Assembly (NCBI GenBank): GCA_023244895.1
Contig: JAHFLL010000001.1
Coordinates: 178,476-242,475 of the forward strand
Reading direction: 5' to 3'
Length of the DNA: 64,000 nt
Source: Candidatus Liptonbacteria bacterium
GTDB lineage: Bacteria > Patescibacteriota > Minisyncoccia > UBA6257 > 2-01-FULL-56-20
Part shown: piece after piece, positions 1-38,217 of the stretch
Layout: the number at the start of each line of letters is the position of its first letter
Numbering within the stretch: the stretch's first letter is position 1
The notes under the pieces: model-generated
Databases searched by the model: none
Told to the model about the DNA's origin: nothing
Seen by the model: the letters and a program-made list of their open reading frames with translations, nothing else
Position numbers and translations under genes: made by a program

Positions 1-1773
1 GGGAACGTGGGTATTTCCACCACCACCCCCTCCGGCAAGCTACATGTTGCCGGTGGCGGTGCGTATATGAGCAACCTGGATGGTTCATATCGTGTCCCGG
101 TCGCGAATACCGAGCTAGTGCCGAAGCAGTATGTAGACAGTGTTTTCCAGCCCATAGCCACGGATGCGCTCTGGACATTAACAGGGTCTGTTATTTATGC
201 ATCTTCCACATCCCGCCAGGTGGCAATAGGCAGTGCGAGCGCAAGTGCTTGGGCCAAGCTTGACGTCAGAGGCGGACAGATAGTTGCAGAACAGTCTGGC
301 GGGACTGGTTATGATAGTTTTGATGGTACGGGCGGCTCGGATGGTTCCAGGGGTTTGCGCGCATCCTGGACCTCTGGTTATGGCGCGAGTCTAGAGGCAT
401 GGGATGGAGGTGCTCCTAAATGGGGTATTTTCCGCTGGAACGCCACCACCTCTTATCCTGTTATGCAGGGACTTTACACTAGCAACAATGTTTACTTTAG
501 CGGGAATATGGGCATAGCTACAACCTCTGCCTCCAATACTCTAGATGTTCAGGGCACGGGCGGATTCACTGGTCAGCTCTACATCCCAGTCACTCCTTTA
601 TCTAGTTCCTCTGCGGCTAGTAAGCAGTATGTAGATACTACTTTTGCCCCTATCGGCACGGTTGGCTTACCGGCTGGCACTACTGGTCAAACTTTGCGCC
701 ACAATGGTTCTACTTGGGTAGCCAATAGCGTGATTTATAACAACGGTTCAACCATAGGGATAGGGACAACAAGTGGTTCTTCTATGTTGACGGTAGCGGG
801 TAGCTTGTCCGCAGTGGCGACCACTACTAGTGTATCTATCTATATGAGCGGAGCAGTAGGCGGTGTGGCGACCATCAGTCAGAATATGAATGGTAGCCCC
901 AACATAATGGGCATCACTACTTCTAATAATGGAGAGTTAATATTGAATGGTTCTGGCTCAACCGGCGTGGTCGCGATAGGCACCATGGCTACCACCTCCG
1001 CAAAACTTACTATTGGCGGCTCCCCAACTATTGCGATTGATGCGGGTGGAGGCAGAATACAAAACTTAGCGACTACTCCAGTTAACGGGAACGACGCCGC
1101 GACCAGGACCTATGTAGATGGCGTGGCTAGCAAGTGGAACTTGTCCAGCACGAACATATATAACAATAATGCGGGAAATATTGGCATAGGTAGCTCAACA
1201 GCGCCGTCGTATAAGTTGCATGTGTTCGGTAGTTTGGGTGCGTCTGGCTCCATAGTCGCCAACGGGGGAATAACTTTAGGCGCAGGTACGAATATCACCG
1301 GTGTCAATAAGATAACCGTGACTACCATTGACCCGGTCTATCGCATTGGAGGAGTAAACTACGCGACCTACGCCGGTTCTTTCGCGGGTGGAGTAAAGGA
1401 AGAGTACTCCGGCAAGGCTAAGCTCAAAGCTCAAATGTCAAAGAACAAAAAAATTGACATTGGAAATTCGGATTTGGACATTACCGGAACCGGTTATGAA
1501 TACGTCATTGACTTCAGTTCGGTTCCGGTCGGCTCCGACTTGTGGGTCTGGTACAAAGCAATTGACTTCTCTAGAGATAATATAGAAGCGGTAGCCACTC
1601 CCTACGGCCAGTCCGCAAGCATCTACTACGTGATAGAGGGCAAGAAGATAATATTCCGGGGAGACAAAGGTGCAGAATTCAGTTTCCGCTTAACCGGTAA
1701 GCGTCATGATTGGCGAGAGTGGCCCACCATGTCTAAGGACCAGGAAGAAAAGCCGAGCTTCATATTGGACTAA
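1..1773 (+). CDS. Gly-rich phage-tail-fibre-like surface protein, 5'-truncated by the window edge (frame is open to base 1)
   Basis: Repeated NIGIG(T/S)xxP...KL(D/H)V motifs and AxxK/RxYVD motifs typical of tail-fibre beta-helix repeats. C-terminal 120 aa (MSKNKKIDIGNSDLDITGT...VPVGSDLW) is paralogous to the C-terminus of the 8862-10169 protein. Confidence 0.7.
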   Translation, partial: GNVGISTTTPSGKLHVAGGGAYMSNLDGSYRVPVANTELVPKQYVDSVFQPIATDALWTLTGSVIYASSTSRQVAIGSASASAWAKLDVRGGQIVAEQSGGTGYDSFDGTGGSDGSRGLRASWTSGYGASLEAWDGGAPKWGIFRWNATTSYPVMQGLYTSNNVYFSGNMGIATTSASNTLDVQGTGGFTGQLYIPVTPLSSSSAASKQYVDTTFAPIGTVGLPAGTTGQTLRHNGSTWVANSVIYNNGSTIGIGTTSGSSMLTVAGSLSAVATTTSVSIYMSGAVGGVATISQNMNGSPNIMGITTSNNGELILNGSGSTGVVAIGTMATTSAKLTIGGSPTIAIDAGGGRIQNLATTPVNGNDAATRTYVDGVASKWNLSSTNIYNNNAGNIGIGSSTAPSYKLHVFGSLGASGSIVANGGITLGAGTNITGVNKITVTTIDPVYRIGGVNYATYAGSFAGGVKEEYSGKAKLKAQMSKNKKIDIGNSDLDITGTGYEYVIDFSSVPVGSDLWVWYKAIDFSRDNIEAVATPYGQSASIYYVIEGKKIIFRGDKGAEFSFRLTGKRHDWREWPTMSKDQEEKPSFILD

Positions 1774-2313: not shown

Positions 2314-2892
2314 ATGGAAAATAAAAATAAAATAATAATCGCGGTTGTGGTCGTAGTAGTAGTGGCTATCGTTGGCTACTGGATTGCTACCAAGTCGGGT
2401 ACGAATACTGCCCAGAACGGTCCAGCGGGGGATGCTCCCGCCGCAGTAGAGACTCCGCAGGGCACCGCCGCCGCCCCAGGCGCGAGCGCGGTAACTGACG
2501 AGGGTAAGGTTGTGACTCAAAGCGGTCAGGTTGCGGACAACACCGCCATTCCTGGCTCTATGGCAGCTCCCCAGCAGTCCGCTCCAATAACTCAGTCTGA
2601 GGCCCCGGCTTCATCCGTAAAGCTCAGCGTGGGTAATTCGGTTTTCTCTCCCACGGACTTCTCGGTAAAGACTGGTTCGGCTACCACCCTGGTGTTAACC
2701 TCGGTGGATTCCATGACTCACGTCTTTAAGTTCCGCGATGCTTCCCTGCAGGCGGTAGCGGTAGGTATTGGCCCGGGCGAAACCCGCCTCATTACCTTCA
2801 ACGCTCCGACCAAGTCAGGAGAGTATGAGTTTTTCTGCGATGTTCCAGGCCACACTGCTCGCGGTGAGACAGGGAAGATGATAGTCAAGTAA
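2314..2892 (+). CDS. Membrane-anchored type-1 copper cupredoxin (plastocyanin/azurin-like)
   Basis: N-terminal poly-Val TM helix and Ala/Pro-rich linker. C-terminal domain has His (THVF), then FFCDVPGH...GKM providing the Cys/His/Met copper ligands. Confidence 0.75.
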   Translation: MENKNKIIIAVVVVVVVAIVGYWIATKSGTNTAQNGPAGDAPAAVETPQGTAAAPGASAVTDEGKVVTQSGQVADNTAIPGSMAAPQQSAPITQSEAPASSVKLSVGNSVFSPTDFSVKTGSATTLVLTSVDSMTHVFKFRDASLQAVAVGIGPGETRLITFNAPTKSGEYEFFCDVPGHTARGETGKMIVK

Positions 2893-3162: not shown

Positions 3163-3879
3163 ATGGAAGGCATGGGTCGGGCGATTGTGAGCGGTCTCTT
3201 TGTGGTTCTTGTTATGATGTCCATCGTGGTTTTGGGTTTAAGCTTTTTATCGCCCTTAGAAAATAAAAAAACAACACCTAAATATAGCGCCACTAAAGTG
3301 GGCACCTCAACCCCGGTCCAAGAGCCGGAGAAAATTTCTTTCAATCCCTTAAGCATCTTCGGTTTCGGCAACAACAAGCCGGAAGAAACTCCGCCGCCAG
3401 CTGTTGCTCCCGTAGAGACTCCGCTTCAGCAGAACATCCCTCCTTCTCCTCCCTCGCTCTCCCTAACCGCCATAGGGACGTCCCCGGTTGTGGATGGCAA
3501 GGTGGTGCAGTTGAGCTACGAGCCAGTGTCTCTTGCGGTTGATCCAGGCTCAAACCAAGCTCCTTTTTCTTCGCGCCCCATAACGCCGGGGGAGTATCTT
3601 CCCAATAGCCGCATTCTCAAATTCAGCGACCAGGGAGTAGATCCGATTAACTTTAGCGTGCAGACTGGATCCGTAATCAATCTGGTTATTCGTTCTGAGG
3701 GCGAGTCGTCTCACGTCTTTCGCTTTAAAGATAAGGGTCTTAAGGCCGTCGCGGTGGGAGTTGGTCCGGAGGAGTCCAGGGAGATAAGTTTTAACGCGCC
3801 TGGTTCTGGATCATATGAGTTCTTTTGCGACATACCCGGGCACAAGACTAGGGAGATAGGGACGATGATTGTCAATTGA
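3163..3879 (+). CDS. Membrane-anchored type-1 copper cupredoxin, tandem paralog
   Basis: Same C-terminal domain as the first copy (SSHVFRFKDKGLKAVAVGVGP...YEFFCDIPGHKTREIGTM). N-terminal TM and Pro-rich linker. Confidence 0.75.
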   Translation: MEGMGRAIVSGLFVVLVMMSIVVLGLSFLSPLENKKTTPKYSATKVGTSTPVQEPEKISFNPLSIFGFGNNKPEETPPPAVAPVETPLQQNIPPSPPSLSLTAIGTSPVVDGKVVQLSYEPVSLAVDPGSNQAPFSSRPITPGEYLPNSRILKFSDQGVDPINFSVQTGSVINLVIRSEGESSHVFRFKDKGLKAVAVGVGPEESREISFNAPGSGSYEFFCDIPGHKTREIGTMIVN

Positions 3880-6045: not shown

Positions 6046-8106
6046 ATGACTAAAAAAATAATATTCTCGGTTTTCATCGTCGGGTCGGTTCTCGGTCTTG
6101 CTCTGATCGTTTCCGCCGCCACCCGAGATATTGTTTTTACGCCCCAAGCCGCGGATCCGTATACCTGCAATGCCTCTACGACCGGGGCAATCTATTTTAA
6201 AAATGACAACAAGATTTATTCTTGCAATGGTTCCGCCTGGGCGCAGGTAGGTGGTGCGGCAGGGGGCGGTTCCGTCTCTACCTCTTCTGCTCTCTCCGCT
6301 TATTATTTTCCGTATTGGTCTAACGCAACGGGCGGTCTTATGGGGACGTCTACTATTTTCTACTCGTCCTCCACGGGCAATATCGGTATTGGCGGGGTAG
6401 TCACTCCTCAGAATAAATTGGATGTAACTTTAGGTACCAACAGCTTCGTCACCTTTGGCAACACGGTTAATACTAATGGAAGTTTCAGCGGCATTCATTT
6501 TGGCTACAAAGAAGACGGCAATGCCAACTATCGCAAAGGGGCATTGGTTTTTGAAACTCTTGGAGACAGCTCTGCTAGGGGTAAAGTGCATATTCTAAAC
6601 GATGGGGGTGCGGATGCTTCTTCGGCGACTCTCGCAGATGCTCGTCTCACGGTTGACTACAACGGTAACGTGGGTATCGGCACCGTCTATCCCTCCTCAA
6701 CTTTACACGTGGTTGGTTCGGCTAAATTTTCCGGTACCGTAGGGGTGGCTACTCCAGTTTTGGCCGGTGACGCCGCAACTAGATCTTATGTGGACACGGT
6801 CTTAGGCGGAGGCACGCTTGTAATCGAAAATCCTACCGGTGGCGACCCGCGCACGGTGTGGTATGGAGACGCCGGTACTATTACCGCCGGTATAAGATTT
6901 AGTACTGGCCGAGCTGGCACTATAACTAAGCTACGCGTCTTGGGGGGCCCCGTAACTTATACTATGAAGCTTTGGGACTATAACACCCAGACAGTCTTGG
7001 CCAGTGGTACCGTTACTGGAATAAACAACACTACCTGGGCAGAAGTCGCAGTGAACGTGTCTACCACTGTAAGCGGGCAGTACGTTGTGACTTATACGGA
7101 ATCAGGCTATGGCATGTATTATGGCGACGCCTCTTGTCCTAATAACACCTTAAGGGGAAGCATCACTGTTATTGCTTGTGGATTCGTAGCGGCCGCCGGC
7201 TTCCCGACTACATGGAATTACAGCCTCTCCGCGGCAGATGTTACGTTTTCCTATAGCGCCGTTACTGCCAGTCAGTGGAACACAACCTCCACCTCCATCT
7301 ACTACAACGTCGGCAACGTTGGCATTGGAACGGCGAGTCCGGGCTCAACTCTGGATGTTTTAGGCACTGGCAATTTCTCCGGGACGGTTACGGTTGCTAC
7401 TCCCACCGTATCTAGTCATGCCGCCACTATGGGGTATGTTAATACTGCGGTATCGTCCACGATTCCAACAGGTATGATAGCTTTCTTTGCTTCTGCCTGT
7501 CCGGCCAATTGGACGGAATACACCGCGCTAAGGGGCAGGGTGATAGTAGGTACACCAAGCGGAGGCACCAATGCCGGCACGGTGGGGACGGCGCTTACTA
7601 ATCTTGCGACCAGAACCATAACTGACGTACCGGCTCATACTCACGCAGTGGATCCGCCCGCTACCGCATCCGGCAACCAGAGTGCAGACCATACCCACAC
7701 CTTTACTACCGGTGGTGTGAGTGTTGGTCATACTCATTCTGTAAACCCCCCCAGTACTTCCGTCAGTATCACAGATCCAGGTCATACGCACACAGTTCCG
7801 AACAGCTACGGTTATGGAGGTAGTAGCGCTTCGGTTAATAATGCTGGTGGGCAATATGATTTAATAAAGTTTTATGGTAGCTCTGTTGCTTCTGCAACTA
7901 CGGGCATAACTGCTTCTGTTGATATTGCAGCTGTTACCTCGGGCGCGCAGAGCGTGGACCACACCCACTCTGGTACTACCGCTGGGATGAGCGTTAGCCA
8001 CACCCACACAACGGATATAGGATCATTTACTTCCGGTTCGGCAGGCTCCGCTTCGGTGGATGTGACTATGCCCTACATTCAGCTTACTGCCTGCCAGAAG
8101 AGCTAG
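6046..8106 (+). CDS. Secreted/anchored tail-fibre-like protein with a phage tail-collar domain and a His-Thr-His repeat region
   Basis: Signal/TM at the N-terminus. NIGIGGV...KLDV and ATRSYVDTV fibre motifs. IPTGMIAFFASACPANWTEYTALRGRVIVGT...PAHTHAV matches the tail-collar (Collar) domain consensus. Six HTH-type motifs follow (HTHA, HTHT, GHTHS, GHTHT, DHTHS, SHTHT). Confidence 0.7.
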   Translation: MTKKIIFSVFIVGSVLGLALIVSAATRDIVFTPQAADPYTCNASTTGAIYFKNDNKIYSCNGSAWAQVGGAAGGGSVSTSSALSAYYFPYWSNATGGLMGTSTIFYSSSTGNIGIGGVVTPQNKLDVTLGTNSFVTFGNTVNTNGSFSGIHFGYKEDGNANYRKGALVFETLGDSSARGKVHILNDGGADASSATLADARLTVDYNGNVGIGTVYPSSTLHVVGSAKFSGTVGVATPVLAGDAATRSYVDTVLGGGTLVIENPTGGDPRTVWYGDAGTITAGIRFSTGRAGTITKLRVLGGPVTYTMKLWDYNTQTVLASGTVTGINNTTWAEVAVNVSTTVSGQYVVTYTESGYGMYYGDASCPNNTLRGSITVIACGFVAAAGFPTTWNYSLSAADVTFSYSAVTASQWNTTSTSIYYNVGNVGIGTASPGSTLDVLGTGNFSGTVTVATPTVSSHAATMGYVNTAVSSTIPTGMIAFFASACPANWTEYTALRGRVIVGTPSGGTNAGTVGTALTNLATRTITDVPAHTHAVDPPATASGNQSADHTHTFTTGGVSVGHTHSVNPPSTSVSITDPGHTHTVPNSYGYGGSSASVNNAGGQYDLIKFYGSSVASATTGITASVDIAAVTSGAQSVDHTHSGTTAGMSVSHTHTTDIGSFTSGSAGSASVDVTMPYIQLTACQKS

Positions 8107-8158: not shown

Positions 8159-8854
8159 ATGCGAATAGGTTTTAGTGTAAAAAGATTAGGTACTAAGATT
8201 ACCGCTCGCAAGCGCATCATTAAGATAGGGCTTGCGTTTTTGGTTGTCGCGCTTCTTATTTCCGGCGCGGTATACTCTTATATCTTCGCGCGGAAAATGA
8301 TAAGTGATGTCTATTATCGTTTGGGACAGATATCTCAGGGACTTGGAAATAACCCAGACTCACTGTCTTTGATAGAAAAATCATACGAATATAATAGTTC
8401 TGATCCCAGAGTTGTGTCTGCTATGGTGATTGGTCATATGAACATAGGGGACTACTCTTCGGCGAAGGATTTATTAGAGAATAAACTGAAAAATTTAGAC
8501 GAAGAAGGCTATCTGTATCTAACCGCGCTTCTTAAGCACAGGGAAAGAAACTATCAAGAAGCGGAGATTATCTTAAGAGGTTTAGTAGACAAGTATCCCG
8601 CTAAAGTTTTCTATTACGACGCACTGGGCTCCATGTATCTGGATATAAAAGATTATGAATCCGCGAAATCAATTTTTGAGAGAGGCATTGCCATCAATCC
8701 CAACGTTTCTATTTTACACGATGGCTTAGGTGTGGCGTATAACGCGCTTGGCAAGGCAGACCTTGCGCGGGATGAATACGCGAAAGCTTTGGAACTTGAC
8801 CCTACTAATACCGGTGCCCGCCGCAATCTAGAATTATTAGACGCAAGAAGATAA
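8159..8854 (+). CDS. TPR-repeat protein with N-terminal TM anchor
   Basis: Tetratricopeptide-like repeats (YYDALGSMYLDIKDYESAKSIFERGIAINP...AYNALGKADLARDEYAKALELDP). Confidence 0.65.
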   Translation: MRIGFSVKRLGTKITARKRIIKIGLAFLVVALLISGAVYSYIFARKMISDVYYRLGQISQGLGNNPDSLSLIEKSYEYNSSDPRVVSAMVIGHMNIGDYSSAKDLLENKLKNLDEEGYLYLTALLKHRERNYQEAEIILRGLVDKYPAKVFYYDALGSMYLDIKDYESAKSIFERGIAINPNVSILHDGLGVAYNALGKADLARDEYAKALELDPTNTGARRNLELLDARR

Positions 8855-8861
8855 GTGCTCT

Positions 8862-10169
8862 ATGAAGAAAGCAGTAAAATCGATTAAGCGCAAAGACCTG
8901 AATTACCGCAGAATTTTCTTGGCGTCCTTGATTGCGCTCGCCGTAGTTATCATCTCGGTTGCGATACTCGCGAGTTACTACGCGAGGGCATTTATCGGTC
9001 CCGGCCAGCCCAGCGGGTCCGGAGCGGGGGCTATCGGAGTGGACTCCGCGGATAATATCAGTGTTGGTTCTTCTACCACGCGCGCCAATACTAAAATGCT
9101 CATTATCTCGTCTAGCACGGGCAGTTCCGCTTGGGCTTTGGGGGTGTATCAGCCGGATGGAACTACGCCCATCTTTCTCGTGAGAGATGACAAAAAAGTG
9201 GCGATTGGAACAAGTATCGGTTCCGCCGCGCTTACGGTGGCGGGAGACATCTCCGCTACAGGCAACATTTCCGGAACTTATACCGGAGCGGTCAGTTCTA
9301 CTAATATCCGAGCGGGAAGTTTCGGGACGGGCGTAGGAGGAGGCAACTTCAGTTTCCCGGCCAGCTTGGCAGTCAGCACGTCTTCCCCAGCCTATAACTT
9401 GGACGTATGGGGTACGGGTCGCTTTATTAACAACCTTGCCGTGGGAACGCCGATTGGCAATGGAGACGCCACGCCGAAATCTTATGTGGATGGGCTGGTC
9501 TACTGGTATGCGGGCAATGGATATCTGTATCCAGCTTCCACGACCATGAATATCGCCATCGGAACATCAACAACCCCATCTTATAAATTAGACGTGTCCG
9601 GCTCGGGGCGTTTTACAGGCAGTTTGATCGCGAGCGGGGGCATAAATCTAAACAATCAAAATATTACCGGGGTAAACAAACTTACCGTGACCACTATTGA
9701 TCCGATTTATTTGATTGATGGGCGCAAGTATGCCACTTATGTCTCGGACACAATTGGCTTAAAAATGGAGGTGTACGGAAAGGCTAAACTGCTGCGCAGT
9801 AGTGACAAAACTCAAATGTCAAAGAACAAAAAAATTGGGATTGGTAATTTAGATTTAGACATTACCGGAACCGACCACCAATATATAATCGATTTTAAAT
9901 CAGTCCCGGTTGGCTCCGACTTGTGGTTGTTTTGGCAGACCATTAAAGAAGGGAGAGATATGCAGGACATTGTAGTTTCTCTTGCGCCCGAAGGTGCTCC
10001 GGCGCGGGTTTGGTACGAGTTTCTTCCCGCCGATAGGCAATTAGTATTTCACTCCGACCGAGAAGTGACTATTTCTTATCATCTTGTAGCCCCGCGCCAC
10101 GACTCGGATAGCTGGCGGAATATTTACGAATCTGATGAACCGGGCGTACCGTTATTGATAAAAAGATAA
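8862..10169 (+). CDS. Type-II membrane-anchored tail-fibre-like protein, paralog of the 1-1773 protein
   Basis: N-terminal TM (FLASLIALAVVIISVAILA). NIAIGTSTTPSYKLDV and PKSYVDGL motifs. C-terminal MSKNKKIGIGNLDLDITGT...VPVGSDLW block shared with ORF1. Confidence 0.7.
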   Translation: MKKAVKSIKRKDLNYRRIFLASLIALAVVIISVAILASYYARAFIGPGQPSGSGAGAIGVDSADNISVGSSTTRANTKMLIISSSTGSSAWALGVYQPDGTTPIFLVRDDKKVAIGTSIGSAALTVAGDISATGNISGTYTGAVSSTNIRAGSFGTGVGGGNFSFPASLAVSTSSPAYNLDVWGTGRFINNLAVGTPIGNGDATPKSYVDGLVYWYAGNGYLYPASTTMNIAIGTSTTPSYKLDVSGSGRFTGSLIASGGINLNNQNITGVNKLTVTTIDPIYLIDGRKYATYVSDTIGLKMEVYGKAKLLRSSDKTQMSKNKKIGIGNLDLDITGTDHQYIIDFKSVPVGSDLWLFWQTIKEGRDMQDIVVSLAPEGAPARVWYEFLPADRQLVFHSDREVTISYHLVAPRHDSDSWRNIYESDEPGVPLLIKR

Positions 10170-10214
10170 GACTTAACTGTTGGGTGTCTAAAAATGCGAA
10201 GACCCCGATGCTTG

Positions 10215-10548
10215 TTTCGGAGTCTGGGCTATTTCGCCTGTTTAAAGAGCGTGGGGACGGGCTGGCGAAAGACCCGCCCCCACCAAACCCAGGAGGGACC
10301 CGGGATCACGTTTAGACGAAGGGCAAGGTGGTAATACGTACCTCCGGCAAGTTGCTGGTTGCTTGTCGGAAATATACCCCCGCGCCCCTCGTGCTGGATA
10401 GAGGATAGTACGAGAGTCCCAACGTGTCAAAAAGCAAAAACCGGACCATGGACGTTGTTCTATCCACAAGAAGAAGGCTCTTAGTGTAGATAGGTCGGCA
10501 AGTCCAAATCCGGTTTTGCTTGGCAAATATATGCTAGGAAGTTCTTCT
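10215..10548 (+). ncRNA. rnpB: Candidate RNase P RNA (bacterial type A, reduced)
   Basis: GGAGGGACCCGGGAUC resembles CR-I GGAAAGUCCGGGCUC. AAGGGCAAGGUGGUAAUACGUACC resembles the P5-P7 segment AGGGCAGGGUGCCAGGUAACGCC. UAGAUAGGUCGGCAAGUCCAAAUCCGGUUUUGC resembles CR-V UAGAUGAAUGACUGUCCACGACAGAACCCGGCUUA. A P4 pairing CCGGG/UCCGG is possible. Confidence 0.5.
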
Positions 10549-11071
10549 GGTCAAGCGTCCCAGGGGGTAGGAGGAGGTTCTGCCTGGGCTTCTGGAGGGG
10601 GGTTAGTAAATGTATTAGTCCACTAAAAAGCATTGACCAAACGGAGATTAGAGCTATTATCACCTCCGGCACATTGTTTACGCGCGGATATGGTGTTCGC
10701 GCGTTTGTGGCGGAGGATGCGTTGAATAAAACCCGCTCTGATTCTGGGACCTCACGGTCCAAGAGATCTTACGGTAAGACTCGGTCCCCCAAAGCCAAGG
10801 GAATGGTTTCTTTTCTGATCCCTCTACGCTGTCCCGGCGGCTGCGGCTCTTTCGTTAGGTGGGATGGCCGGAAGCCATACTGCATGGACAGGACCTGCAA
10901 GGGTAACGAGATCCTGACGCGCATGTCGCGTAAAGGGGGGATGTTTGAGGACATCTGCGCCGCCGCACGAGCGTTAGAGGCGTATCGCAGAAAGAGATCT
11001 TAGTGGGTGGAGGAGAAAGTCGTACGGGTACCCCAAGGTGCCCGTTACGTTTTTATGATAATCTTCTATAT

Positions 11072-16892: not shown

Positions 16893-17571
16893 GATAGCGG
16901 TAGCTATAAATTGTATGGATGCTGATTGCGCCGAAAACAAAATTCGGCACATTCTATCCTTCTTGCCTAAAGATGGTTGGCTTCATTTGGACGCCGCGGA
17001 CGGTCGCTTTACCTTTAATAAGAGCTGGCAAGACCCGAGCTTAATGCAGCGTTTAATCGGCGACTCCAATCTGGAGGTGCATATTATGGCAGAGGAGCCA
17101 GAGCTCTCTATGGAAATGTGGCTGGCTGCCGGGGCGAAGAGGATAGTTTTACATCTAGAATCGTTCTTTAAAACCACCCGCCGAGAATGTCCCACAGATC
17201 CATTCCATGCTCTAAATCAACTAAGATTGCATTGCGAGGAGAGGAGGGCGAAATTGGTATTGGCGATCAATGCCGAAACTCCGGTACGTGACCTTGAGCC
17301 ATATCTCGCTAAATTCTCCGACTTCCAAATTTTTTCTCAAGCGCATCCCGGTCCAGCGGGTCAGCCTTTTCTTGCAACGGTTTTGCCTAAGATAAAATGG
17401 TTGCGCGAGAAGTCGCCGCGAGCGATAATTGAGGTGGATGGCGGAATGGTACCGGAAACAGTGCGGCAAGTTTGCGAGGCCGGCGCGAATTGGATAATTT
17501 CCGGTTCTTATATTTTAAACAGCTCTGACCCGCTTCGCTCTTATCTTGAATTAAAGAATATAAAAGTATGA
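16885..17571 (+). CDS. rpe: Ribulose-phosphate 3-epimerase
   Basis: HLDAADGRF, EVHIM, VDGGM motifs. Overlaps rpiB by 8 nt and tkt by 4 nt (operon). Confidence 0.75.
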   Translation: MPEIAVAINCMDADCAENKIRHILSFLPKDGWLHLDAADGRFTFNKSWQDPSLMQRLIGDSNLEVHIMAEEPELSMEMWLAAGAKRIVLHLESFFKTTRRECPTDPFHALNQLRLHCEERRAKLVLAINAETPVRDLEPYLAKFSDFQIFSQAHPGPAGQPFLATVLPKIKWLREKSPRAIIEVDGGMVPETVRQVCEAGANWIISGSYILNSSDPLRSYLELKNIKV

Positions 17572-18428
17572 AAGATTTACACGAAAAACAATTGAAGTTT
17601 TTGGAAGAAACAGCTAATTTTGTCCGACAAGATGTAATTAAGATGTTGCTTGCGGCCGGCTCGGGTCACTCCGCCGGCTCGCTCGGCATGGCGGACGTCA
17701 TGACCGCGCTTTACTTCCATATTTTAAATCACAAACCCAAGCAGCCTAATTTTAAAGATCGCGACCGGGTCGTCTTGTCCAACGGGCACATTTGCCCGGT
17801 GCTGTACGCGGTTTTGGCCCGCGCGGGATATTTCCCCCTGGAAGAGCTCAAGACCCTGCGCCAGCTCGGGTCTCGTCTACAAGGACACCCCCATCGTCTT
17901 GCTTTGCCTGGCATAGAAAATAGTTCCGGTCCGCTTGGTTCTGGACTTTCCCAGGCGATAGGCATGGCGCTTACTGCCAGAATGGATGGGAAAAAACATC
18001 GGATATATTGCCTAATGTCGGACGGAGAACACCAGGAGGGTAATACTTGGGAAGCTATTATGTCCGCGAGCAAGTACCGGCTTTCCAATATTACGGCCAT
18101 TATAGATCGCAACCATATTCAGATAGACGGCTTTACCGAAAACATAATGCCGCTTGAACCCCTTAAGGAGAAGTATGAGTCTTTCGGCTGGCAGGTGCTG
18201 GAAGTAAGCGGCCACAGCTTTGAGTCTATAATTTCCGCCGTCGCGGAAGCGCAAGCTATCCACGAGAGGCCAACCGCAATTATAGCTCACACCATTCCCG
18301 GCATGGGAGTCAGTTTTATGGAAAATGACTATATCTGGCACAGCAAGGCGCCCAAATCGGAAGAAGCCAGGTTGGCGCTTAAAGAGCTGAGAAGTCTGGG
18401 CGGGAAGATAAGGTCGGAACACGAGTAA
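17568..18428 (+). CDS. tkt: Transketolase, N-terminal (TPP pyrophosphate-binding) subunit
   Basis: GSGHSAGSLGMADVMTALYF...SDGEHQEGNTWEA. Split-type transketolase. Confidence 0.85.
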   Translation: MKDLHEKQLKFLEETANFVRQDVIKMLLAAGSGHSAGSLGMADVMTALYFHILNHKPKQPNFKDRDRVVLSNGHICPVLYAVLARAGYFPLEELKTLRQLGSRLQGHPHRLALPGIENSSGPLGSGLSQAIGMALTARMDGKKHRIYCLMSDGEHQEGNTWEAIMSASKYRLSNITAIIDRNHIQIDGFTENIMPLEPLKEKYESFGWQVLEVSGHSFESIISAVAEAQAIHERPTAIIAHTIPGMGVSFMENDYIWHSKAPKSEEARLALKELRSLGGKIRSEHE

Positions 18429-18461
18429 TTTGATCCGAATGCCACGAATTTAAACCATATT

Positions 18462-19454
18462 ATGTTGAACGAAAAATTAAAACTTAACCCCAGATTATTT
18501 GAAGCCGATGTGGAGATGCGCCCGACTCGGGATGGCTACGGAGAGGGACTGCTCTTAGCGGGAGAGAAAAACAAGAACGTAGTAGCTCTAACCGCGGATT
18601 TATCTGAGTCCACGCGGGCGGATGGATTTGCGAAAAAGTTTCCGGAAAGATTTGTGGAATTGGGCGTAGCGGAGCAAAATCTCGCGACGGTGGCAGCGGG
18701 CATGGGAGTTTCCGGCAAGATAGCGTTTATCTCTTCTTATGCCACATTCTCTCCCGGTCGTAACTGGGAGCAAATCCGAACCACTATCGCTTTTAATGAT
18801 TCCAACGTTAAAATCGCCGGCCATCATACCGGGTTTTCGGTTGGTCCAGACGGAGCTACTCATCAGGCATTGGAGGATATAGCCCTAATGAGGGTGCTCC
18901 CTAATATGAAAGTTTTTGTGCCTTGCGACGCTATTGAGGCGCGCAAAGCAACTCTGGCTGCGGCTCAGATCTGGGGTCCAATTTATCTACGCTTCGGCCG
19001 AGAGAAGACCCCGATTTTTACTACGGAGGCCACACCTTTTCTTCCTGGCAAGCTGGAGGTATTTTGGGGTTCGCCCAAGCCCGCGGTTGCCATTATCGCC
19101 AGCGGTCCCATTATTGGTGAAGCGCTCAAAGCCGCAATGGAACTAAAAAAGCGCAAGATAGAAGTTATTGTAGCTAACTGCCACACGATCTCTCCTATAG
19201 ATAAGGAGGGCATAGAGACCCTAGCCAAGAAGGCGGGCGCTATCGTTACCGTGGAAGAGCATCAGGTGAGAGGTGGGCTGGGCGGAGCGGTTGCGGAGAT
19301 AGTCTCCGGCGCTCATCCCGTGCCGATGGAGTTTGTCGGCGTGAAAAACACCTTCGGAGAATCTGGGGCTCCTGCGGAACTGTGGCAGAAATATGGCATG
19401 ACCGCGAAGGACATAGTTTCCGCCGCGCGCGCCGCGATCCGCCGTAAAAAATAA
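18462..19454 (+). CDS. tkt: Transketolase, C-terminal (pyrimidine-binding/C-terminal) subunit
   Basis: FVELGVAEQNLATVAAGM...ATHQALEDIALMRVLPNMKVFVPCD. Confidence 0.85.
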   Translation: MLNEKLKLNPRLFEADVEMRPTRDGYGEGLLLAGEKNKNVVALTADLSESTRADGFAKKFPERFVELGVAEQNLATVAAGMGVSGKIAFISSYATFSPGRNWEQIRTTIAFNDSNVKIAGHHTGFSVGPDGATHQALEDIALMRVLPNMKVFVPCDAIEARKATLAAAQIWGPIYLRFGREKTPIFTTEATPFLPGKLEVFWGSPKPAVAIIASGPIIGEALKAAMELKKRKIEVIVANCHTISPIDKEGIETLAKKAGAIVTVEEHQVRGGLGGAVAEIVSGAHPVPMEFVGVKNTFGESGAPAELWQKYGMTAKDIVSAARAAIRRKK

Positions 19455-35109: not shown

Positions 35110-38100
35110 ATGAAAAAATACGACTTTAAAAAAATTGAAGCCAAGTGGCAGAAGGTCTGGCAGGAGAAGGGTGTTTACGAACCTGCCTTAAAGTCCTCCA
35201 AGGGCAAAAATCCTCCCTTCTATAACTTGATGATGTTTCCGTATCCTTCCGCGGAGGGTCTGCATGTAGGCAATATGTATGCCTTCACGGGTACGGATAT
35301 CTACGGACGTTATAAGCGTATGCAGGGCAACGATGTTTTTGAGCCGATTGGCCTAGACGGCTTCGGAATTCACTCCGAGAACTATGCCATGAAAATCGGG
35401 GCTCACCCCATGAAGCAGGCTAAAGTATCGGAGAAAAGGTTCTATAAGCAGCTGCAGGCAATAGGAAACGGGTTTGCCTGGAACGAGCGCCTGGAAACAT
35501 ATGATCCGGAATATTACCGCTGGACGCAGTGGATTTTCGCGCAGATGTTTAAGGCGGGGTTGGCTTATCGCAAGAAGCAGGCTGTGAACTGGTGTCCATC
35601 CTGCATGACGGTTTTGTCCGACGAGCAGGCCGAGGGCGGAAAGTGCGAACGTTGCAACTCGGTAGTTATTAAAAAAGATTTAGAGCAGTGGTTTTTTAAA
35701 ATTACGGAATACGCGGAAAGACTTTTGCAGAATCTGGACAAGTTGGATTGGTCCGAAAAGGTAAAAATAGCGCAGAAGAATTGGATAGGGAAGTCGGAGG
35801 GGGCGGAGCTGGAATTTGGAATTAAGAATTATGAATTAGGAATCAAAAATGCCCTGGTTATTCATGGTGTGAGTGGGCATAAGAGGGAAAATTGGTTTCC
35901 GTGGCTGAAAGATATTTTAGAGAAAGACGGTTGGCATGTTAGCGTGCCCACTCTACCGACCCCCGATCATCCCAAAATAGAAGAATGGAATATGGTCCTA
36001 AAGAAAGAGTCTACATCCGCCTCTGTTTTAATCGGCCACAGTTTGGGAGCTCCAGCCGCTTTAAACCTTATTCAGACCAGCAATAAAAAGATAGACAGAT
36101 TAATCTTGGTAGCTCCGGTCAATCCTAAACAGGATTGGAGATATTTAAAGTCGGTCTATCCTCAAGCTGATTGGGATGCGGTCAAAAACTTCGCGGATAT
36201 TAAGTTCGATTGGGAAAAAATTACAAAATTAGTCAGACAGGTTGTGGTCTATTATTCCGACAATGACCCATATGTTTCTGCTAAATCGGTGGAGTTCTAT
36301 AAGCAGCATCTACCGAACGCTATTTTTAGGTTCTTGCCCGGCAAGGGCCATTTTAATGAGCGTTATGGGATAACCGAATTTCCGGAAATCCTGGAAGCGG
36401 TTAACCCCAAGGTAAAAGTTTTTACAACCAGGCCGGATACGCTTTTTGGCGCGACTTATGTCGTCTTGGCGCCGGAACACCCATTGATACAGAATCTAGA
36501 AGGTGGAATTAAGAATGTAGTAGAAGTTAAGAACTATATTAAGAAATCTAAGGCTAAGACTGATGAGGAGAGAATAGAGAACAAAGAGAAAACTGGCGTA
36601 GAACTAAGGGGCGTTAAAGCTATAAATCCTGCGACCCAAGGAGAGATATCCATTTGGGTAGCAGATTATGTTTTGTCTTCCTACGGCACAGGTGCAATTA
36701 TGGCCGTCCCGGCACACGATGAGCGCGACCACGAGTTTGCTAGCAAGTACAAACTTCCAATCGTAGAGGTGGTTGATTCTCAAGATAACTCCGACGGCAC
36801 CCTTTGGCTTGGAGGAGGACGCTTAATAAATTCTGGAAGATTTAACGGAGTGGATTCAGAAGAGGCCAAGTGGAAAATAACGGCAGAGGTTGGTGGCAAG
36901 AAAAAGATACAATATCGTCTGCGAGACTGGCTGATTTCGCGTCAGCGCTATTGGGGTCCGCCCATCCCGATGATTCATTGCGAAGGTTGCGAAAAAGCCG
37001 GGAAGGGGGAGCGCAAAGAAATGCCGGGCTGGTACGCGGTGCCCGACAAAGACCTGCCGGTGAAGCTGCCGTTCGTAAAAGATTTTCGTCCGCAAGGCTC
37101 TGGCAGTTCGCCACTCGCGGCATCTAAGGCATTCCGCGATGTGCGCTGTCCGGTCTGTAAAAATAAAGCCAAGCGGGAGACAGACGTTTCGGACACTTTT
37201 TTGGACTCGGCCTGGTACTATTTGCGCTATCCATCCTTAAGCTCCAAGACTGCCAAGGCTAAAGCCTGGGACCCGGAGATAACCAAGAGCTGGTGTCCGG
37301 TTGATATGTATATCGGCGGGGCGGAGCACTCCGTGTTGCACCTGCTATACGTACGCTTTTTGGCCCTAGCCTTACACGACCTGAAACTAGTCAATTTTGG
37401 AGACTCTAAGGCCCCTAAAGGCGAGCCATTCCCCAAATTCCGCGCCCACGGCCTTCTTATTAAGGAGGGAGCTAAAATGTCCAAGTCTAAGGGGAATGTG
37501 GTCAATCCGGACGAATATATCAAGAATTTTGGAGCGGACACCCTGCGCATGTATTTGATGTTTTTAGCTCCCTTTGAACAGGGTGGAGACTTCCGGGACG
37601 CGGGCGTTATGGGTATCAGCCGCTTTTTGGAGAGGGTGTATAAATTTAGTCAAAGAATTAGCGACCCGAATACTACAAATTACATCCGAATTATCCGAAA
37701 AGAGAGAAAGAATTCGGAGCATTCGGATGTATTCGTGGATTTGGATCGCATACTGCATCAGACCATTAAGAAGGTTTCGGATGATCTGGAGAGTTTGAGC
37801 TACAACACGGCCATAAGCGCCATGATGATATTGCTAAATAAGTTCGAGGAAAAGGCAGAGTCAGTCTCGCTACCAAATTGGATAGACTTCTTGAAACTGC
37901 TTGCTCCATTTGCTCCACATCTTTCCGAGGAACTGTTCCAGTCAGCCAAAAAACATAATTCTCAATTCATAATTCGTAATTCAATCCATCTATCCGATTG
38001 GCCCCAATATAACCCAGAGCTTGCCCGGGAATCCAATTTTACTTTGATAGTTCAAATTAACGGCAAGGTGCGTGCGAGCATTGAGGCTCCGATTGGGATA

Positions 38101-38217
38101 TCAGAGAAGAACGCTCTGGCGCTTGCCCTCCGAAATGAGCGCGTGAAAGAACTTGTGTCCGGCGATCCGAAGAGGGTGATATTTATTCCTAATCGTCTGA
38201 TTAACCTGGTAATCTAA
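35110..38217 (+). CDS. leuS: Leucine--tRNA ligase carrying two insertions (alpha/beta-hydrolase domain; in-frame palindromic repeat)
   Basis: HVGNMYAFTGTDIY (HIGH-type), TTRPDTLFGATYVVLAPEHP and AVPAHDERD editing-domain motifs, KMSKSKGN. About 1035 aa versus about 800-860 typical. Confidence 0.9.
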   Translation: MKKYDFKKIEAKWQKVWQEKGVYEPALKSSKGKNPPFYNLMMFPYPSAEGLHVGNMYAFTGTDIYGRYKRMQGNDVFEPIGLDGFGIHSENYAMKIGAHPMKQAKVSEKRFYKQLQAIGNGFAWNERLETYDPEYYRWTQWIFAQMFKAGLAYRKKQAVNWCPSCMTVLSDEQAEGGKCERCNSVVIKKDLEQWFFKITEYAERLLQNLDKLDWSEKVKIAQKNWIGKSEGAELEFGIKNYELGIKNALVIHGVSGHKRENWFPWLKDILEKDGWHVSVPTLPTPDHPKIEEWNMVLKKESTSASVLIGHSLGAPAALNLIQTSNKKIDRLILVAPVNPKQDWRYLKSVYPQADWDAVKNFADIKFDWEKITKLVRQVVVYYSDNDPYVSAKSVEFYKQHLPNAIFRFLPGKGHFNERYGITEFPEILEAVNPKVKVFTTRPDTLFGATYVVLAPEHPLIQNLEGGIKNVVEVKNYIKKSKAKTDEERIENKEKTGVELRGVKAINPATQGEISIWVADYVLSSYGTGAIMAVPAHDERDHEFASKYKLPIVEVVDSQDNSDGTLWLGGGRLINSGRFNGVDSEEAKWKITAEVGGKKKIQYRLRDWLISRQRYWGPPIPMIHCEGCEKAGKGERKEMPGWYAVPDKDLPVKLPFVKDFRPQGSGSSPLAASKAFRDVRCPVCKNKAKRETDVSDTFLDSAWYYLRYPSLSSKTAKAKAWDPEITKSWCPVDMYIGGAEHSVLHLLYVRFLALALHDLKLVNFGDSKAPKGEPFPKFRAHGLLIKEGAKMSKSKGNVVNPDEYIKNFGADTLRMYLMFLAPFEQGGDFRDAGVMGISRFLERVYKFSQRISDPNTTNYIRIIRKERKNSEHSDVFVDLDRILHQTIKKVSDDLESLSYNTAISAMMILLNKFEEKAESVSLPNWIDFLKLLAPFAPHLSEELFQSAKKHNSQFIIRNSIHLSDWPQYNPELARESNFTLIVQINGKVRASIEAPIGISEKNALALALRNERVKELVSGDPKRVIFIPNRLINLVI
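35818..36414 (+). other. Inserted YdeN/RBBP9-type serine hydrolase domain within leuS (residues about 237-435)
   Basis: LVIHGVSGHKRENWFPW...LIGHSLGAPAAL (GxSxG nucleophile elbow)...YYSDNDPYV...GKGHFN (Asp/His). Inserted between the conserved ...SEGAELEF and VKVFTTRPDT LeuS blocks, which are normally only a few residues apart. Confidence 0.65.
37660..37751. repeat. MITE-like palindromic element (ORF-less derivative of the 1773-2223 element) inserted in-frame in leuS
   Basis: agcgacccgaat...catccgaat...attcggagcattcggatgtattcgtggatttggatcgc matches both ends of the 1773-2223 element. Translated as SDPNTTNYIRIIRKERKNSEHSDVFVD in the LeuS frame. Confidence 0.6.

What the first reader, a model, noticed from the sequence alone, without database searches (positions are those of the whole stretch)
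7360..8106. Tail-collar domain followed by six His-Thr-His repeats (putative metal-binding fibre tip)
The segment IPTGMIAFFASACPANWTEYTALRGRVIVGT...PAHTHAV matches the phage tail-collar domain. Five more HTH-type motifs follow (HTHTFTTGG, GHTHSVNPP, GHTHTVPNS, DHTHSGTTAG, SHTHTTDIG) spaced about 15-25 aa apart. Iterated HxH motifs coordinate metal ions in the T4 long-tail-fibre needle. An extended HxH array downstream of a collar domain in a cellular surface protein is unusual.
Basis: partly seen in the sequence, partly recalled or inferred. Interest (0 to 1): 0.6.

Follow-up and report, generated by a model that had tools for sequence, protein, structure and literature searches.

The report
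Phage-type fibre tip on CPR surface protein
A tiny-genome (CPR) bacterium encodes a secreted or membrane-anchored surface fibre ending in the same kind of histidine-studded, probably metal-stapled receptor-binding needle that phages such as T4 carry on their tail fibres, so it is most likely a tool for gripping another cell.

Summary
The last 248 codons of a 686-aa ORF (6046-8106, +) contain six exact His-Thr-His motifs, against 0.11 expected by chance. They follow a PTGMIAFF..CPANW..LRGR segment.

The Pfam Collar model does not hit, whether I scan the whole protein or the C-terminus alone. More sensitive tests do place the segment with phage fibre tips:
- A family profile finds T4 gp37 (2XGF) as its best solved structure.
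- A profile-profile comparison with classical fibre collars gives 98% probability.
- Foldseek finds viral tail-collar proteins.
- The tip aligns collinearly (36% identity over 197 aa) with the tail fibre of Sinorhizobium phage phiM6, which has a full Pfam Collar domain.

The window protein is a "mini-collar" lacking about 31 residues of that domain. A needle and head are inserted into it, and the chain returns to a conserved C-terminal strand.

The gene is chromosomal, in a Liptonbacteria-like CPR genome with no phage genes nearby. It has an N-terminal signal or anchor and a stalk like the Bdellovibrio MAT fibres.

The tip family is large (8,880 clusters) and has no Pfam model. It occurs in CPR, DPANN, Myxococcota and Bdellovibrionales genomes and in real phage tails.

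Trimer formation, metal binding and the adhesin role are inferred, not shown. I class it as a new variant of a known kind.

The parts
6046..8106 (+). Whole gene: 686-aa surface fibre protein (stop at 8104-8106)
   Evidence: ORF list. The exact protein is found on chromosomal contigs up to 840,672 bp.
6046..6120 (+). N-terminal signal peptide or signal-anchor (MTKK + 18-residue hydrophobic core + VSAAT)
   Evidence: Read from the sequence. 138 of 212 family members starting with Met have an N-terminal hydrophobic 17-mer.
6160..6249 (+). Small N-terminal domain with Cys pair C41/C60
   Evidence: pLDDT about 80 in the full-length model; Cys positions.
6379..6426 (+). Stalk capping-loop motif 1 (NIGIGGVVTPQNKLDV)
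   Evidence: Fits the MAT-fibre consensus V-G-G/N-pi-x-x-P-x-x-x-L (PMC10769870). Coordinates.
6667..6711 (+). Stalk capping-loop motif 2 (NVGIGTVYPSSTLHV)
   Evidence: phmmer hit to Bdellovibrio MAT fibre Bd3182 (8OJN), aa 196-248, E 7.8e-4. Most N-terminal homologues cover aa 100-245.
6808..7230 (+). Middle all-beta domain (about aa 255-395) with Cys pair C364/C378; few homologues
   Evidence: Beta strands at aa 280-352 with pLDDT 53-67. Homologue coverage is only 5-13 here. No family assigned.
7315..7359 (+). Stalk capping-loop motif 3 (NVGIGTASPGSTLDV)
   Evidence: 60% identical over 50 aa to the motif-2 region; pLDDT 85-88.
7462..7635 (+). Mini-collar, N-terminal part (IPTGMIAFFASACPANWTEYTALRGRVIVG...TRTITDVPA; Cys485)
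   Evidence: pLDDT 85-97. About 100% occupancy and high conservation. hhalign 98.3% to fibre collars. Foldseek hits to viral tail-collar proteins.
7636..7791 (+). Ascending needle segment with HxH motifs 1-4 (H531/533, H549/551, H562/564, H580/582)
   Evidence: It aligns with the gp37 needle HxH motifs and with the phiM6 fibre. Motifs 1 and 2 are conserved family-wide; motifs 3 and 4 lie in the variable extension.
7792..7959 (+). Variable apex / putative head (aa 583-638), the likely ligand-binding end
   Evidence: Occupancy is 15-57% in the family alignment. Apex length ranges 28-96 aa and is enriched in G, Y, W, N and D. Tandem phage paralogues differ mainly here.
7960..8052 (+). Descending needle segment with HxH motifs 5-6 (H639/641, H652/654) and the conserved HTHTTDIGSFTSGS return
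   Evidence: 7939-8006 is a diverged duplicate (71% nt identity) of 7669-7736, a double-HxH unit.
8053..8103 (+). C-terminal strand returning to the collar (SVDVTMPYIQLTACQKS; Cys683)
   Evidence: P238 and Y239 are invariant in A1 and at least 90% conserved in A2. pLDDT 87-97. The motif ends a median of 8 aa before the stop codon. The Cys pair with Cys485 is present in 114 of the 115 members that carry the C-terminal motif.
8159..8854 (+). Downstream TPR protein with N-terminal hydrophobic segment; possibly co-transcribed (53-nt gap)
   Evidence: Pfam TPR_2 E 4.4e-16. No terminator-like site between the genes. Any role in the fibre is untested.
8862..10169 (+). Second fibre-like gene (435 aa) with a different C-terminal domain, shared with the giant upstream protein (7-1773)
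   Evidence: tblastn 41% identity over 351 aa between 8862-10169 and 733-1746.

Best explanation
The gene encodes a secreted or membrane-anchored surface fibre of a Candidate Phyla Radiation (Liptonbacteria-like) bacterium, probably a trimer. Its parts, from the N-terminus:
- A signal peptide or anchor.
- A small disulfide-type domain.
- A stalk with three 'capping-loop' motifs, like those of the Bdellovibrio MAT fibres, interrupted by a beta domain.
- A C-terminal 214-aa tip (aa 473-686) of the phage long-tail-fibre type.

The tip consists of a shortened collar domain that is split in two. Inserted into it is a needle whose ascending part carries four HxH motifs and whose descending part carries two, with a variable apex between them. 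The chain then returns to the collar as the conserved strand SVDVTMPYIQL, which is probably tied to the collar's N-terminal part through Cys485 and Cys683.

By analogy with T4 gp37, each HxH motif from three chains would give six His ligands around one metal ion (Fe2+ or Zn2+) on the three-fold axis. That would staple the needle rigid and present the apex to a ligand on another cell, most plausibly the host of this episymbiont.

Shown here: the motifs, their conservation, homology of the tip to phage fibre tips, the cellular genomic context, and the variable apex. Inferred: trimer formation, metal binding, surface display and adhesion.
For: - Motifs are real and non-random.
- The A1 tip profile has 2XGF (T4 gp37 tip) as its best PDB hit, E 5.8e-5, followed by two other phage tail fibres.
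- hhalign of the collar part against classical collars: probability 98.3%, E 1.2e-14.
- Foldseek against BFVD: the top hits are tail-collar, MdpB and baseplate proteins; best E 1.4e-4, probability 1.0.
- The only hit in 50,697 phage genomes is the phiM6 'putative tail-fiber protein'. It carries a full Pfam Collar (E 1.6e-23) and aligns with the query from LRGR to the last Cys (36% identity over 197 aa, E 6e-16).
- The AF2 monomer is confident (pLDDT 85-97) only for aa 473-540 and 655-686. That is what a discontinuous collar with an inserted needle needing a trimer would give. In gp37 the collar is residues 811-881 plus 1010-1026, with the needle inserted (PMC6957217; PMC12609058).
- The collar, HxH 1, HxH 2, the last HxH and the C-terminal strand are conserved, while aa 559-638 are variable.
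- In 89 of 107 family members the number of HxH motifs before the apex exceeds the number after it by exactly one, as expected if they interleave in an up-and-down needle.
- Context is cellular. The neighbours are cupredoxins, SpoU, GAPDH, RpiB, Rpe and transketolase; there are no phage structural PHROGs and GC is uniform. The organism is a CPR bacterium.
- The stalk matches MAT fibre Bd3182 (PMC10769870). Stalk homologues carry other tips such as S74.
- Real phages use the same tip: L033 has it in the gene two downstream of the tape measure, and L035 has three tandem paralogues next to an integrase. Cellular members replace the phage N-terminus with a hydrophobic anchor.
Against: - Pfam Collar, PHROGs and NCBIfam give no hit to this protein.
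- The collar-only profile finds no fibre in the PDB. The 2XGF hit therefore leans on the compositionally biased HxH region (bias 38 bits).
- Foldseek against the PDB was not significant.
- The needle and apex have pLDDT below 60, and the full-length model averages 52. No structure shows the His residues on an axis.
- The query has 4+2 motifs, the minority pattern (14 of 107).
- Nothing shows expression, localisation, oligomeric state, metal content or a binding partner.
Confidence: 0.68

Rival explanations
1. It is a tail-fibre gene of a prophage or a decaying phage remnant, not a cellular surface protein.
For: The tip module is used by real phages. PHROG tail-fibre families hit the phage paralogue P0038.
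Against: There is no capsid, terminase, portal, tape-measure or integrase gene within about 20 kb. The neighbours are housekeeping genes and GC is uniform. The N-terminus is a signal or anchor, not the phage attachment domain seen in P0037, P0038 and P0065. The stalk is of the cellular MAT type. Myxococcota homologues also sit among housekeeping genes.
Confidence: 0.07
2. The His array is a metal-handling device (binding, buffering or delivery of Cu, Ni, Zn or Fe at the cell surface) rather than a structural staple of an adhesin. It may be linked to the two cupredoxin genes upstream.
For: There are twelve closely spaced His residues. Two cupredoxin genes lie 2-4 kb upstream. Some family members or their neighbours carry Cu-binding MopE motifs.
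Against: The His residues occur only as strict HxH pairs, in fixed register with a collar and a return strand, and follow an n+1/n rule. That is the architecture of structural sites in gp37, not of labile His-rich tails. The cupredoxin neighbourhood is not conserved in related loci.
Confidence: 0.07
3. It is a surface fibre with the same architecture, but it serves something other than binding a partner cell. Examples are anchoring to the cell's own wall or S-layer, kin adhesion or aggregation, or acting as a decoy for phages.
For: No ligand is known. MAT-like fibres have varied tips. The family also occurs in social Myxococcota.
Against: In every characterised case this tip type contacts a receptor on a target cell. 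The apex is the most variable part and differs between tandem paralogues, which fits diversifying recognition.
Confidence: 0.15

Closest known systems
T4 gp37 long-tail-fibre receptor-binding tip (PDB 2XGF) and relatives (Bas63 LTF/STF tips)
   Same: The order of elements is the same: collar, needle with repeated HxH, small head, and a chain that doubles back to end in the collar. It is the best PDB hit of the family profile. The collar is discontinuous with the needle inserted.
   Different: The collar is about 31 residues shorter and has a conserved Cys pair. There are six HxH motifs (4 up, 2 down) against seven (3 up, 4 down). The protein has a signal or anchor N-terminus and sits in a cellular genome. 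No gp38 or gp57A-like chaperone gene is nearby. Sequence identity is too low for single-sequence detection.
Sinorhizobium phage phiM6 putative tail-fibre protein (AXP07711.1)
   Same: It is the closest annotated relative: 36% identity over 197 aa from the end of the collar to the C-terminal Cys. The motifs HTHA[VI]DPP.TA and H.HT.DI.SFTSG.AGS are shared.
   Different: phiM6 has the full 57-position Pfam Collar (82.8 bits) and 4+3 HxH motifs. It ends in RPRNIALLYCIKT rather than SVDVTMPYIQLTACQKS, and it is part of a virion.
Pfam Collar PF07484 / T4 gp12 / COG4675 'microcystin-dependent protein' MdpB
   Same: It shares the P-x-G-x-[IV]-x-x-F...P-x-G-W start, the LRGR end, the following P-x-H-x-H and the terminal P-Y-x-x-L strand.
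   Different: The HMM does not reach threshold for the query. Even the bridging member P0099 scores 23.3 bits against a cutoff of 24, on HMM positions 1-21 only. The middle of the domain is deleted.
Bdellovibrio bacteriovorus MAT (mosaic adhesive trimer) fibres, e.g. Bd3182 (8OJN)
   Same: Both are cell-encoded fibres with phage-like parts and a beta-helical stalk with V-G-G/N-pi-x-x-P-x-x-x-L capping loops; the query has three copies. C-terminal tips are swappable, and the query's stalk homologues carry S74 and other tips.
   Different: None of the six MAT tips solved in that paper is of the collar/HxH type; the words 'collar', 'histidine' and 'gp37' do not occur in it. The N-terminal domain differs, and the host lineage is CPR. 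Surface display and function are untested here.

Membership tests
Pfam Collar (PF07484) | HMM score at or above the gathering cutoff (24 bits) | tested here: not met
   No hit at E<=10 for the whole protein, the 248-aa C-terminus or an 83-aa sub-segment. Only 2 of 37 family members give any hit. The one I checked, P0099, scores 23.3 bits on HMM positions 1-21.
Pfam Collar (PF07484) | Remote homology to bona fide collar domains by profile-profile or fold comparison | tested here: met
   hhalign A3 vs A4: 98.3% probability over 62 columns. A4 includes two sequences recruited by the query's own search. Foldseek BFVD top hits are tail-collar proteins, E 1.4e-4. The tip aligns collinearly with the phiM6 fibre, which has a full Collar.
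gp37-type receptor-binding tip | Collar domain interrupted by an inserted needle/head, with the chain returning to the collar at the C-terminus | tested here: met
   High pLDDT and conservation occur only in aa 473-540 and 655-686, with the variable insert between them. The conserved terminal strand ends a median of 8 aa before the stop codon.
gp37-type receptor-binding tip | Repeated HxH motifs on both the ascending and descending strands | tested here: met
   Four motifs before and two after the apex. The family follows an n+1/n rule in 89 of 107 members.
gp37-type receptor-binding tip | Homotrimer with His side chains coordinating metal ions on the three-fold axis | not testable with these tools
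The monomer model has pLDDT below 60 in the needle. Metal content needs an experiment.
gp37-type receptor-binding tip | Part of a phage tail or tailocin | tested here: not met
   No phage structural genes in the neighbourhood; the context is chromosomal CPR.
MAT-type cellular fibre (Caulton et al. 2024) | Beta-helical stalk with capping-loop motif V-G-G/N-pi-x-x-P-x-x-x-L | tested here: met
   Three copies at aa 112-127, 208-222 and 424-438. phmmer hit to Bd3182 (8OJN), E 7.8e-4. Motif definition.
MAT-type cellular fibre (Caulton et al. 2024) | Conserved MAT N-terminal domain and demonstrated display on the cell surface | not tested
   I made no comparison with MAT N-terminal domains. Only a signal/anchor-like N-terminus and three local Cys pairs were seen.

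The most novel reading that the evidence does not exclude
CPR bacteria, and in parallel DPANN archaea, Bdellovibrionales and Myxococcota, may have taken the metal-stapled receptor-binding needle of phage tail fibres and mounted it on anchored cell-surface fibres. It would then serve as their device for recognising host or prey cells, with the variable apex setting partner specificity. If so, this unannotated family of thousands of clusters would be a readable 'host-range determinant' for uncultured episymbionts.
Probability: 0.3. Interest if true: 0.75.

Novelty: new variant of a known kind. Interest (0 to 1): 0.55.

Why it matters
How ultrasmall CPR episymbionts find and hold their hosts is largely unknown beyond type IV pili (PMC12206443, abstract seen). 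A phage-style receptor-binding tip on a cell-anchored fibre would be a concrete, testable candidate. Its hypervariable apex could be compared across genomes to predict partner specificity.

The work also defines a large tip family that has no Pfam model: 8,880 clusters at 50% identity. It is a collar lacking about 31 residues, a conserved Cys pair, and an n+1/n arrangement of HxH motifs. Phages and phylogenetically distant cells share it, which is of interest for annotation, for the evolution of phage-derived cellular machinery, and for estimates of protein-bound iron.

Tried and rejected
- **Pseudo-trimer model.** I submitted three tip copies joined by GS linkers to test whether the His residues cluster on an axis.
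- **Foldseek against the PDB.** The monomer model gave only non-significant hits, although they were fibre-type: 6ov6, 9nxk, T4 gp10 and an eCIS fibre.
- **Collar-only profile against the PDB.** It found no fibre; the top hit was an unrelated epimerase at E 0.005. This shows the 2XGF hit depends partly on the HxH region.
- **Full-length AF2 monomer.** It was too poor (mean pLDDT 52) to assign the middle domain, so I spent no fold search on it.
- **Prophage hypothesis.** Rejected after PHROG scans of nine neighbouring proteins and a GC profile.
- **Synteny.** The TPR, 583-aa and cupredoxin neighbours are not conserved in 30 related genome loci.
- **Second tip copy.** I found none in the window.
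- **Literature.** Searches for CPR fibre adhesins or for cellular HxH fibres found no prior description of this family.
Full report
**1. The observation.**
Window 7360-8106 is the 3' end of a 686-codon ORF (6046-8106, + strand).

The six His-Thr-His motifs start at residues 531, 549, 562, 580, 639 and 652. They hold 12 of the 13 His in the last 248 residues, while the first 438 residues have only three His. In 100,000 shuffles of the segment the mean HTH count was 0.11 and never exceeded 3; one shuffle reached six HxH.

The spacing is 18, 13, 18, 59 and 13 residues, so "15-25 aa apart" is only roughly right. A 56-residue stretch separates four motifs from the last two. A 68-nt stretch encoding a double-HxH unit (7669-7736) recurs at 7939-8006 with 71% identity, which marks an old internal duplication.

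**2. Does it match the Collar domain?**
Pfam-A gives no Collar (PF07484) hit for the whole protein, for the C-terminal 248 aa or for a sub-segment, even at E<=10. PHROGs and NCBIfam are also silent.

The segment does have many homologues. A search of the C-terminal 248 aa returned 325 proteins, with essentially none carrying a precomputed Pfam domain and two named "microcystin-dependent protein". An exhaustive profile search found 8,880 clusters at 50% identity with E<=1e-3, and 934 with E<=1e-30.

The alignment consensus is PSGxVxFFxxxxCPxGWxEYTAARGRVxVG...VPxHTHxVDPP...HTH...[variable]...HxHTxDIxxFxSxSTGxASVDVTMPYIQLxACxK. Several results connect this family to phage fibre tips:
- The profile's best match among all PDB sequences is the T4 gp37 tip, 2XGF (E 5.8e-5). 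The alignment is collinear from gp37's collar through its HxH needle. Two other phage tail fibres, 9qgo and 9nxk, follow.
- That hit carries a large composition bias. A profile of the collar part alone finds no fibre in the PDB, so I sought independent links.
- hhalign of the collar-only family profile against an alignment of classical fibre collars (gp37, 9qgo, 9nxk, P0081, P0099) gives 98.3% probability over 62 columns. The alignment shows a deletion in the query family between "GW" and "LRGR". Two of the five reference sequences had been recruited by the query's own search.
- Foldseek of the AF2 model against viral predicted structures is led by "Phage tail collar domain-containing protein" of cyanophage P-SSM5 (E 1.4e-4, probability 1.0). 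Many tail-collar, MdpB and baseplate proteins follow.
- tblastn against 50,697 deposited phage genomes gives a single hit, the "putative tail-fiber protein" of Sinorhizobium phage phiM6. That protein has a full-length Pfam Collar (E 1.6e-23, 82.8 bits, HMM 1-57). The Collar is followed by HTHAIDPPSTA..., four HxH motifs, an apex, three HxH motifs, HSHTVDIASFTSGAAGSG and a terminal ...LLYCIKT.
- The phiM6 protein aligns with the window protein from LRGR to the last Cys, with 36% identity over 197 aa.

The window protein therefore carries a truncated collar. Its 26 residues PTGMIAFFASACPANWTEYTALRGRV correspond to the 57-position Collar domain, so about 31 residues are missing. That explains why the HMM fails.

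**3. Anatomy of the tip.**
The AF2 monomer model (119-sequence alignment) is confident, with pLDDT 85-97, only for protein residues about 473-540 and 655-686. It falls below 60 in between. Conservation follows the same pattern:
- The N-terminal collar part, HxH 1 and 2, the last HxH and the C-terminal strand are occupied in about 100% of members and well conserved.
- Residues 559-638 (HxH 3 and 4, the apex and HxH 5) are present in only 15-57% of members.

This is the pattern reported for gp37. There the collar (residues 811-881 plus 1010-1026) is interrupted by the needle, the chain doubles back at the head, and the seven di-His motifs bind Fe on the axis (PMC6957217; PMC12609058).

Across 107 family members with at least three HxH motifs, the count before the apex exceeds the count after it by exactly one in 89 members. 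It exceeds it by two in 14, including the query, and by zero in 4. Such a rule is hard to explain unless ascending and descending motifs interleave along one needle.

The apex is 28-96 residues long and is enriched in Gly, Tyr, Trp, Asn and Asp relative to the needle. It is where tandem paralogues differ most.

The Cys in CPxGW and the Cys four residues from the C-terminus co-occur in 114 of the 115 members that carry the C-terminal motif. Short forms usually have exactly these two Cys. The query's six Cys form three local pairs: 41/60, 364/378 and 485/683. I infer disulfides and hence an extracytoplasmic location.

**4. The rest of the protein and its setting.**
The N-terminus is a signal peptide or signal-anchor. 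138 of 212 family members starting with Met have an equivalent hydrophobic N-terminus.

The stalk contains three copies of NxGIGxxxPxxxLxV. This fits the capping-loop consensus of the Bdellovibrio MAT fibres, and the only single-sequence PDB hit is MAT fibre Bd3182 (8OJN, E 7.8e-4). Homologues of the N-terminal 472 aa are other fibre proteins. Some end in the S74 chaperone domain, and some are named [quoted passage not shown]. The stalk is therefore a mosaic scaffold with exchangeable tips. The middle domain (about aa 255-395) remains unassigned.

The gene is chromosomal. The same protein lies on contigs of 171 kb and 840,672 bp. It is flanked by a 2,066-aa protein, PDDEXK_3, two cupredoxins, a TPR protein, a second fibre-like gene, SpoU, DUF192, GAPDH, RpiB, Rpe and a split transketolase. 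PHROG scans of nine neighbours find no virion proteins and GC is even.

The window's MetRS is 84% identical to one from Candidatus Liptonbacteria, and all close relatives are Parcubacteria or Patescibacteria. The downstream 435-aa protein and the C-terminus of the giant upstream protein share a different C-terminal domain (41% identity). This locus therefore encodes at least three fibre-like proteins with two tip types.

**5. Who else has the tip.**
A pattern scan of one genome per species found 30 loci:
- 18 in Myxococcales, Deltaproteobacteria, unclassified proteobacterial, Bdellovibrionales or Haliangium MAGs.
- 8 in CPR MAGs (Saccharibacteria, Nealsonbacteria, Microgenomates, Parcubacteria, Kaiserbacteria).
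- 2 in Woesearchaeota.
- 1 in an Elusimicrobia MAG and 1 in a "Spirochaetia" MAG.

Three Myxococcota members that I checked lie among housekeeping genes. One short CPR-like member follows PilB and PilC genes.

The same tip is also used by real phages:
- In IMG/VR contig L033 it ends the 657-aa gene two positions after the tape-measure gene.
- In L035 three tandem 214-223-aa paralogues lie 2.6 kb upstream of an integrase gene, and one of them hits PHROG tail-fibre families.
- The phage versions begin with a phage-type N-terminus (MAWTTPRTW...), whereas cellular versions begin with a hydrophobic anchor.

**6. Interpretation.**
The best-supported reading is a cell-surface fibre of MAT-like build whose C-terminal tip is a reduced version of the gp37-type receptor-binding needle. 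Homology of the tip, the split collar, the conserved HxH core, the variable apex and the cellular context are shown. Trimer formation, one metal ion per HxH triplet, disulfide bonding, surface display and adhesion to a partner cell are inferred by analogy and remain untested.

The rivals are less likely, for the reasons given in their entries. They are a prophage remnant, a metal-handling protein linked to the cupredoxins, and a fibre with a role other than binding a partner cell.

**7. Novelty.**
HxH needles on phage fibres are well known, and cell-encoded chimeric fibres with phage-like tips are known from Bdellovibrio. I found no description of three things:
- This particular mini-collar/HxH tip family.
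- Its size and its lack of any Pfam model.
- Its presence on anchored cellular fibres of CPR, DPANN and Myxococcota.

I class it as a new variant of a known kind. It is of moderate interest mainly as a candidate host-recognition device for uncultured episymbionts.

Noticed in passing
window 35110-38217 (+): The leucyl-tRNA synthetase (1,035 aa) carries an inserted alpha/beta serine-hydrolase domain (PF06821, aa 249-429, E 8e-20). It sits between the catalytic N-terminal part and the editing domain. This is an unusual insertion for a LeuRS.
   Followed up: no
window 7-1773 (+) and 8862-10169 (+): The C-terminus of the giant upstream protein (2,066 aa on the full contig) and the 435-aa protein downstream share a roughly 350-aa C-terminal domain (41% identity) with no Pfam or PHROG match. 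It looks like a second 'tip' type in the same fibre-gene neighbourhood.
   Followed up: partly
window 10170-11002: A gene-poor stretch of about 830 bp with slightly raised GC (0.525) lies between the second fibre gene and the SpoU methylase gene. It holds only short overlapping ORFs. There is no Rfam match even at E<=1, and no convincing promoter or terminator.
   Followed up: partly
window 2314-2892 and 3163-3879 (+): Two tandem paralogous cupredoxin genes (46% identity), each with an N-terminal extension, lie just upstream of the fibre locus.
   Followed up: no
L036 441-8570 (contig Ga0163200_1000014): A 189-aa minimal family member (TM anchor plus a 3-HxH tip) lies directly downstream of type IV pilus PilB- and PilC-like genes and several small unannotated proteins. 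This hints at a possible link between short tip proteins and pili in some lineages.
   Followed up: no
Family members P0004-P0024 (N-termini): Many short cellular members share a post-anchor motif A-[FW]-T-[GS]-P-x-x-x-P-P immediately after the hydrophobic helix. Its function is unknown; it could be a processing or attachment signal.
   Followed up: no
window 6160-6249 (+): The N-terminal domain motif TCNASTTGAIYFKNDNKIYSCNGSAWAQV (Cys41/Cys60) is predicted confidently as a small beta unit (pLDDT about 80) but has no family assignment.
   Followed up: no
window 17568-19454 (+): Transketolase appears to be split into two adjacent genes, with the N-terminal part at 17568-18428 (DXP_synthase_N/Transketolase_N). 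I did not scan the adjacent 18462-19454 ORF, which I presume to be the C-terminal part.
   Followed up: no
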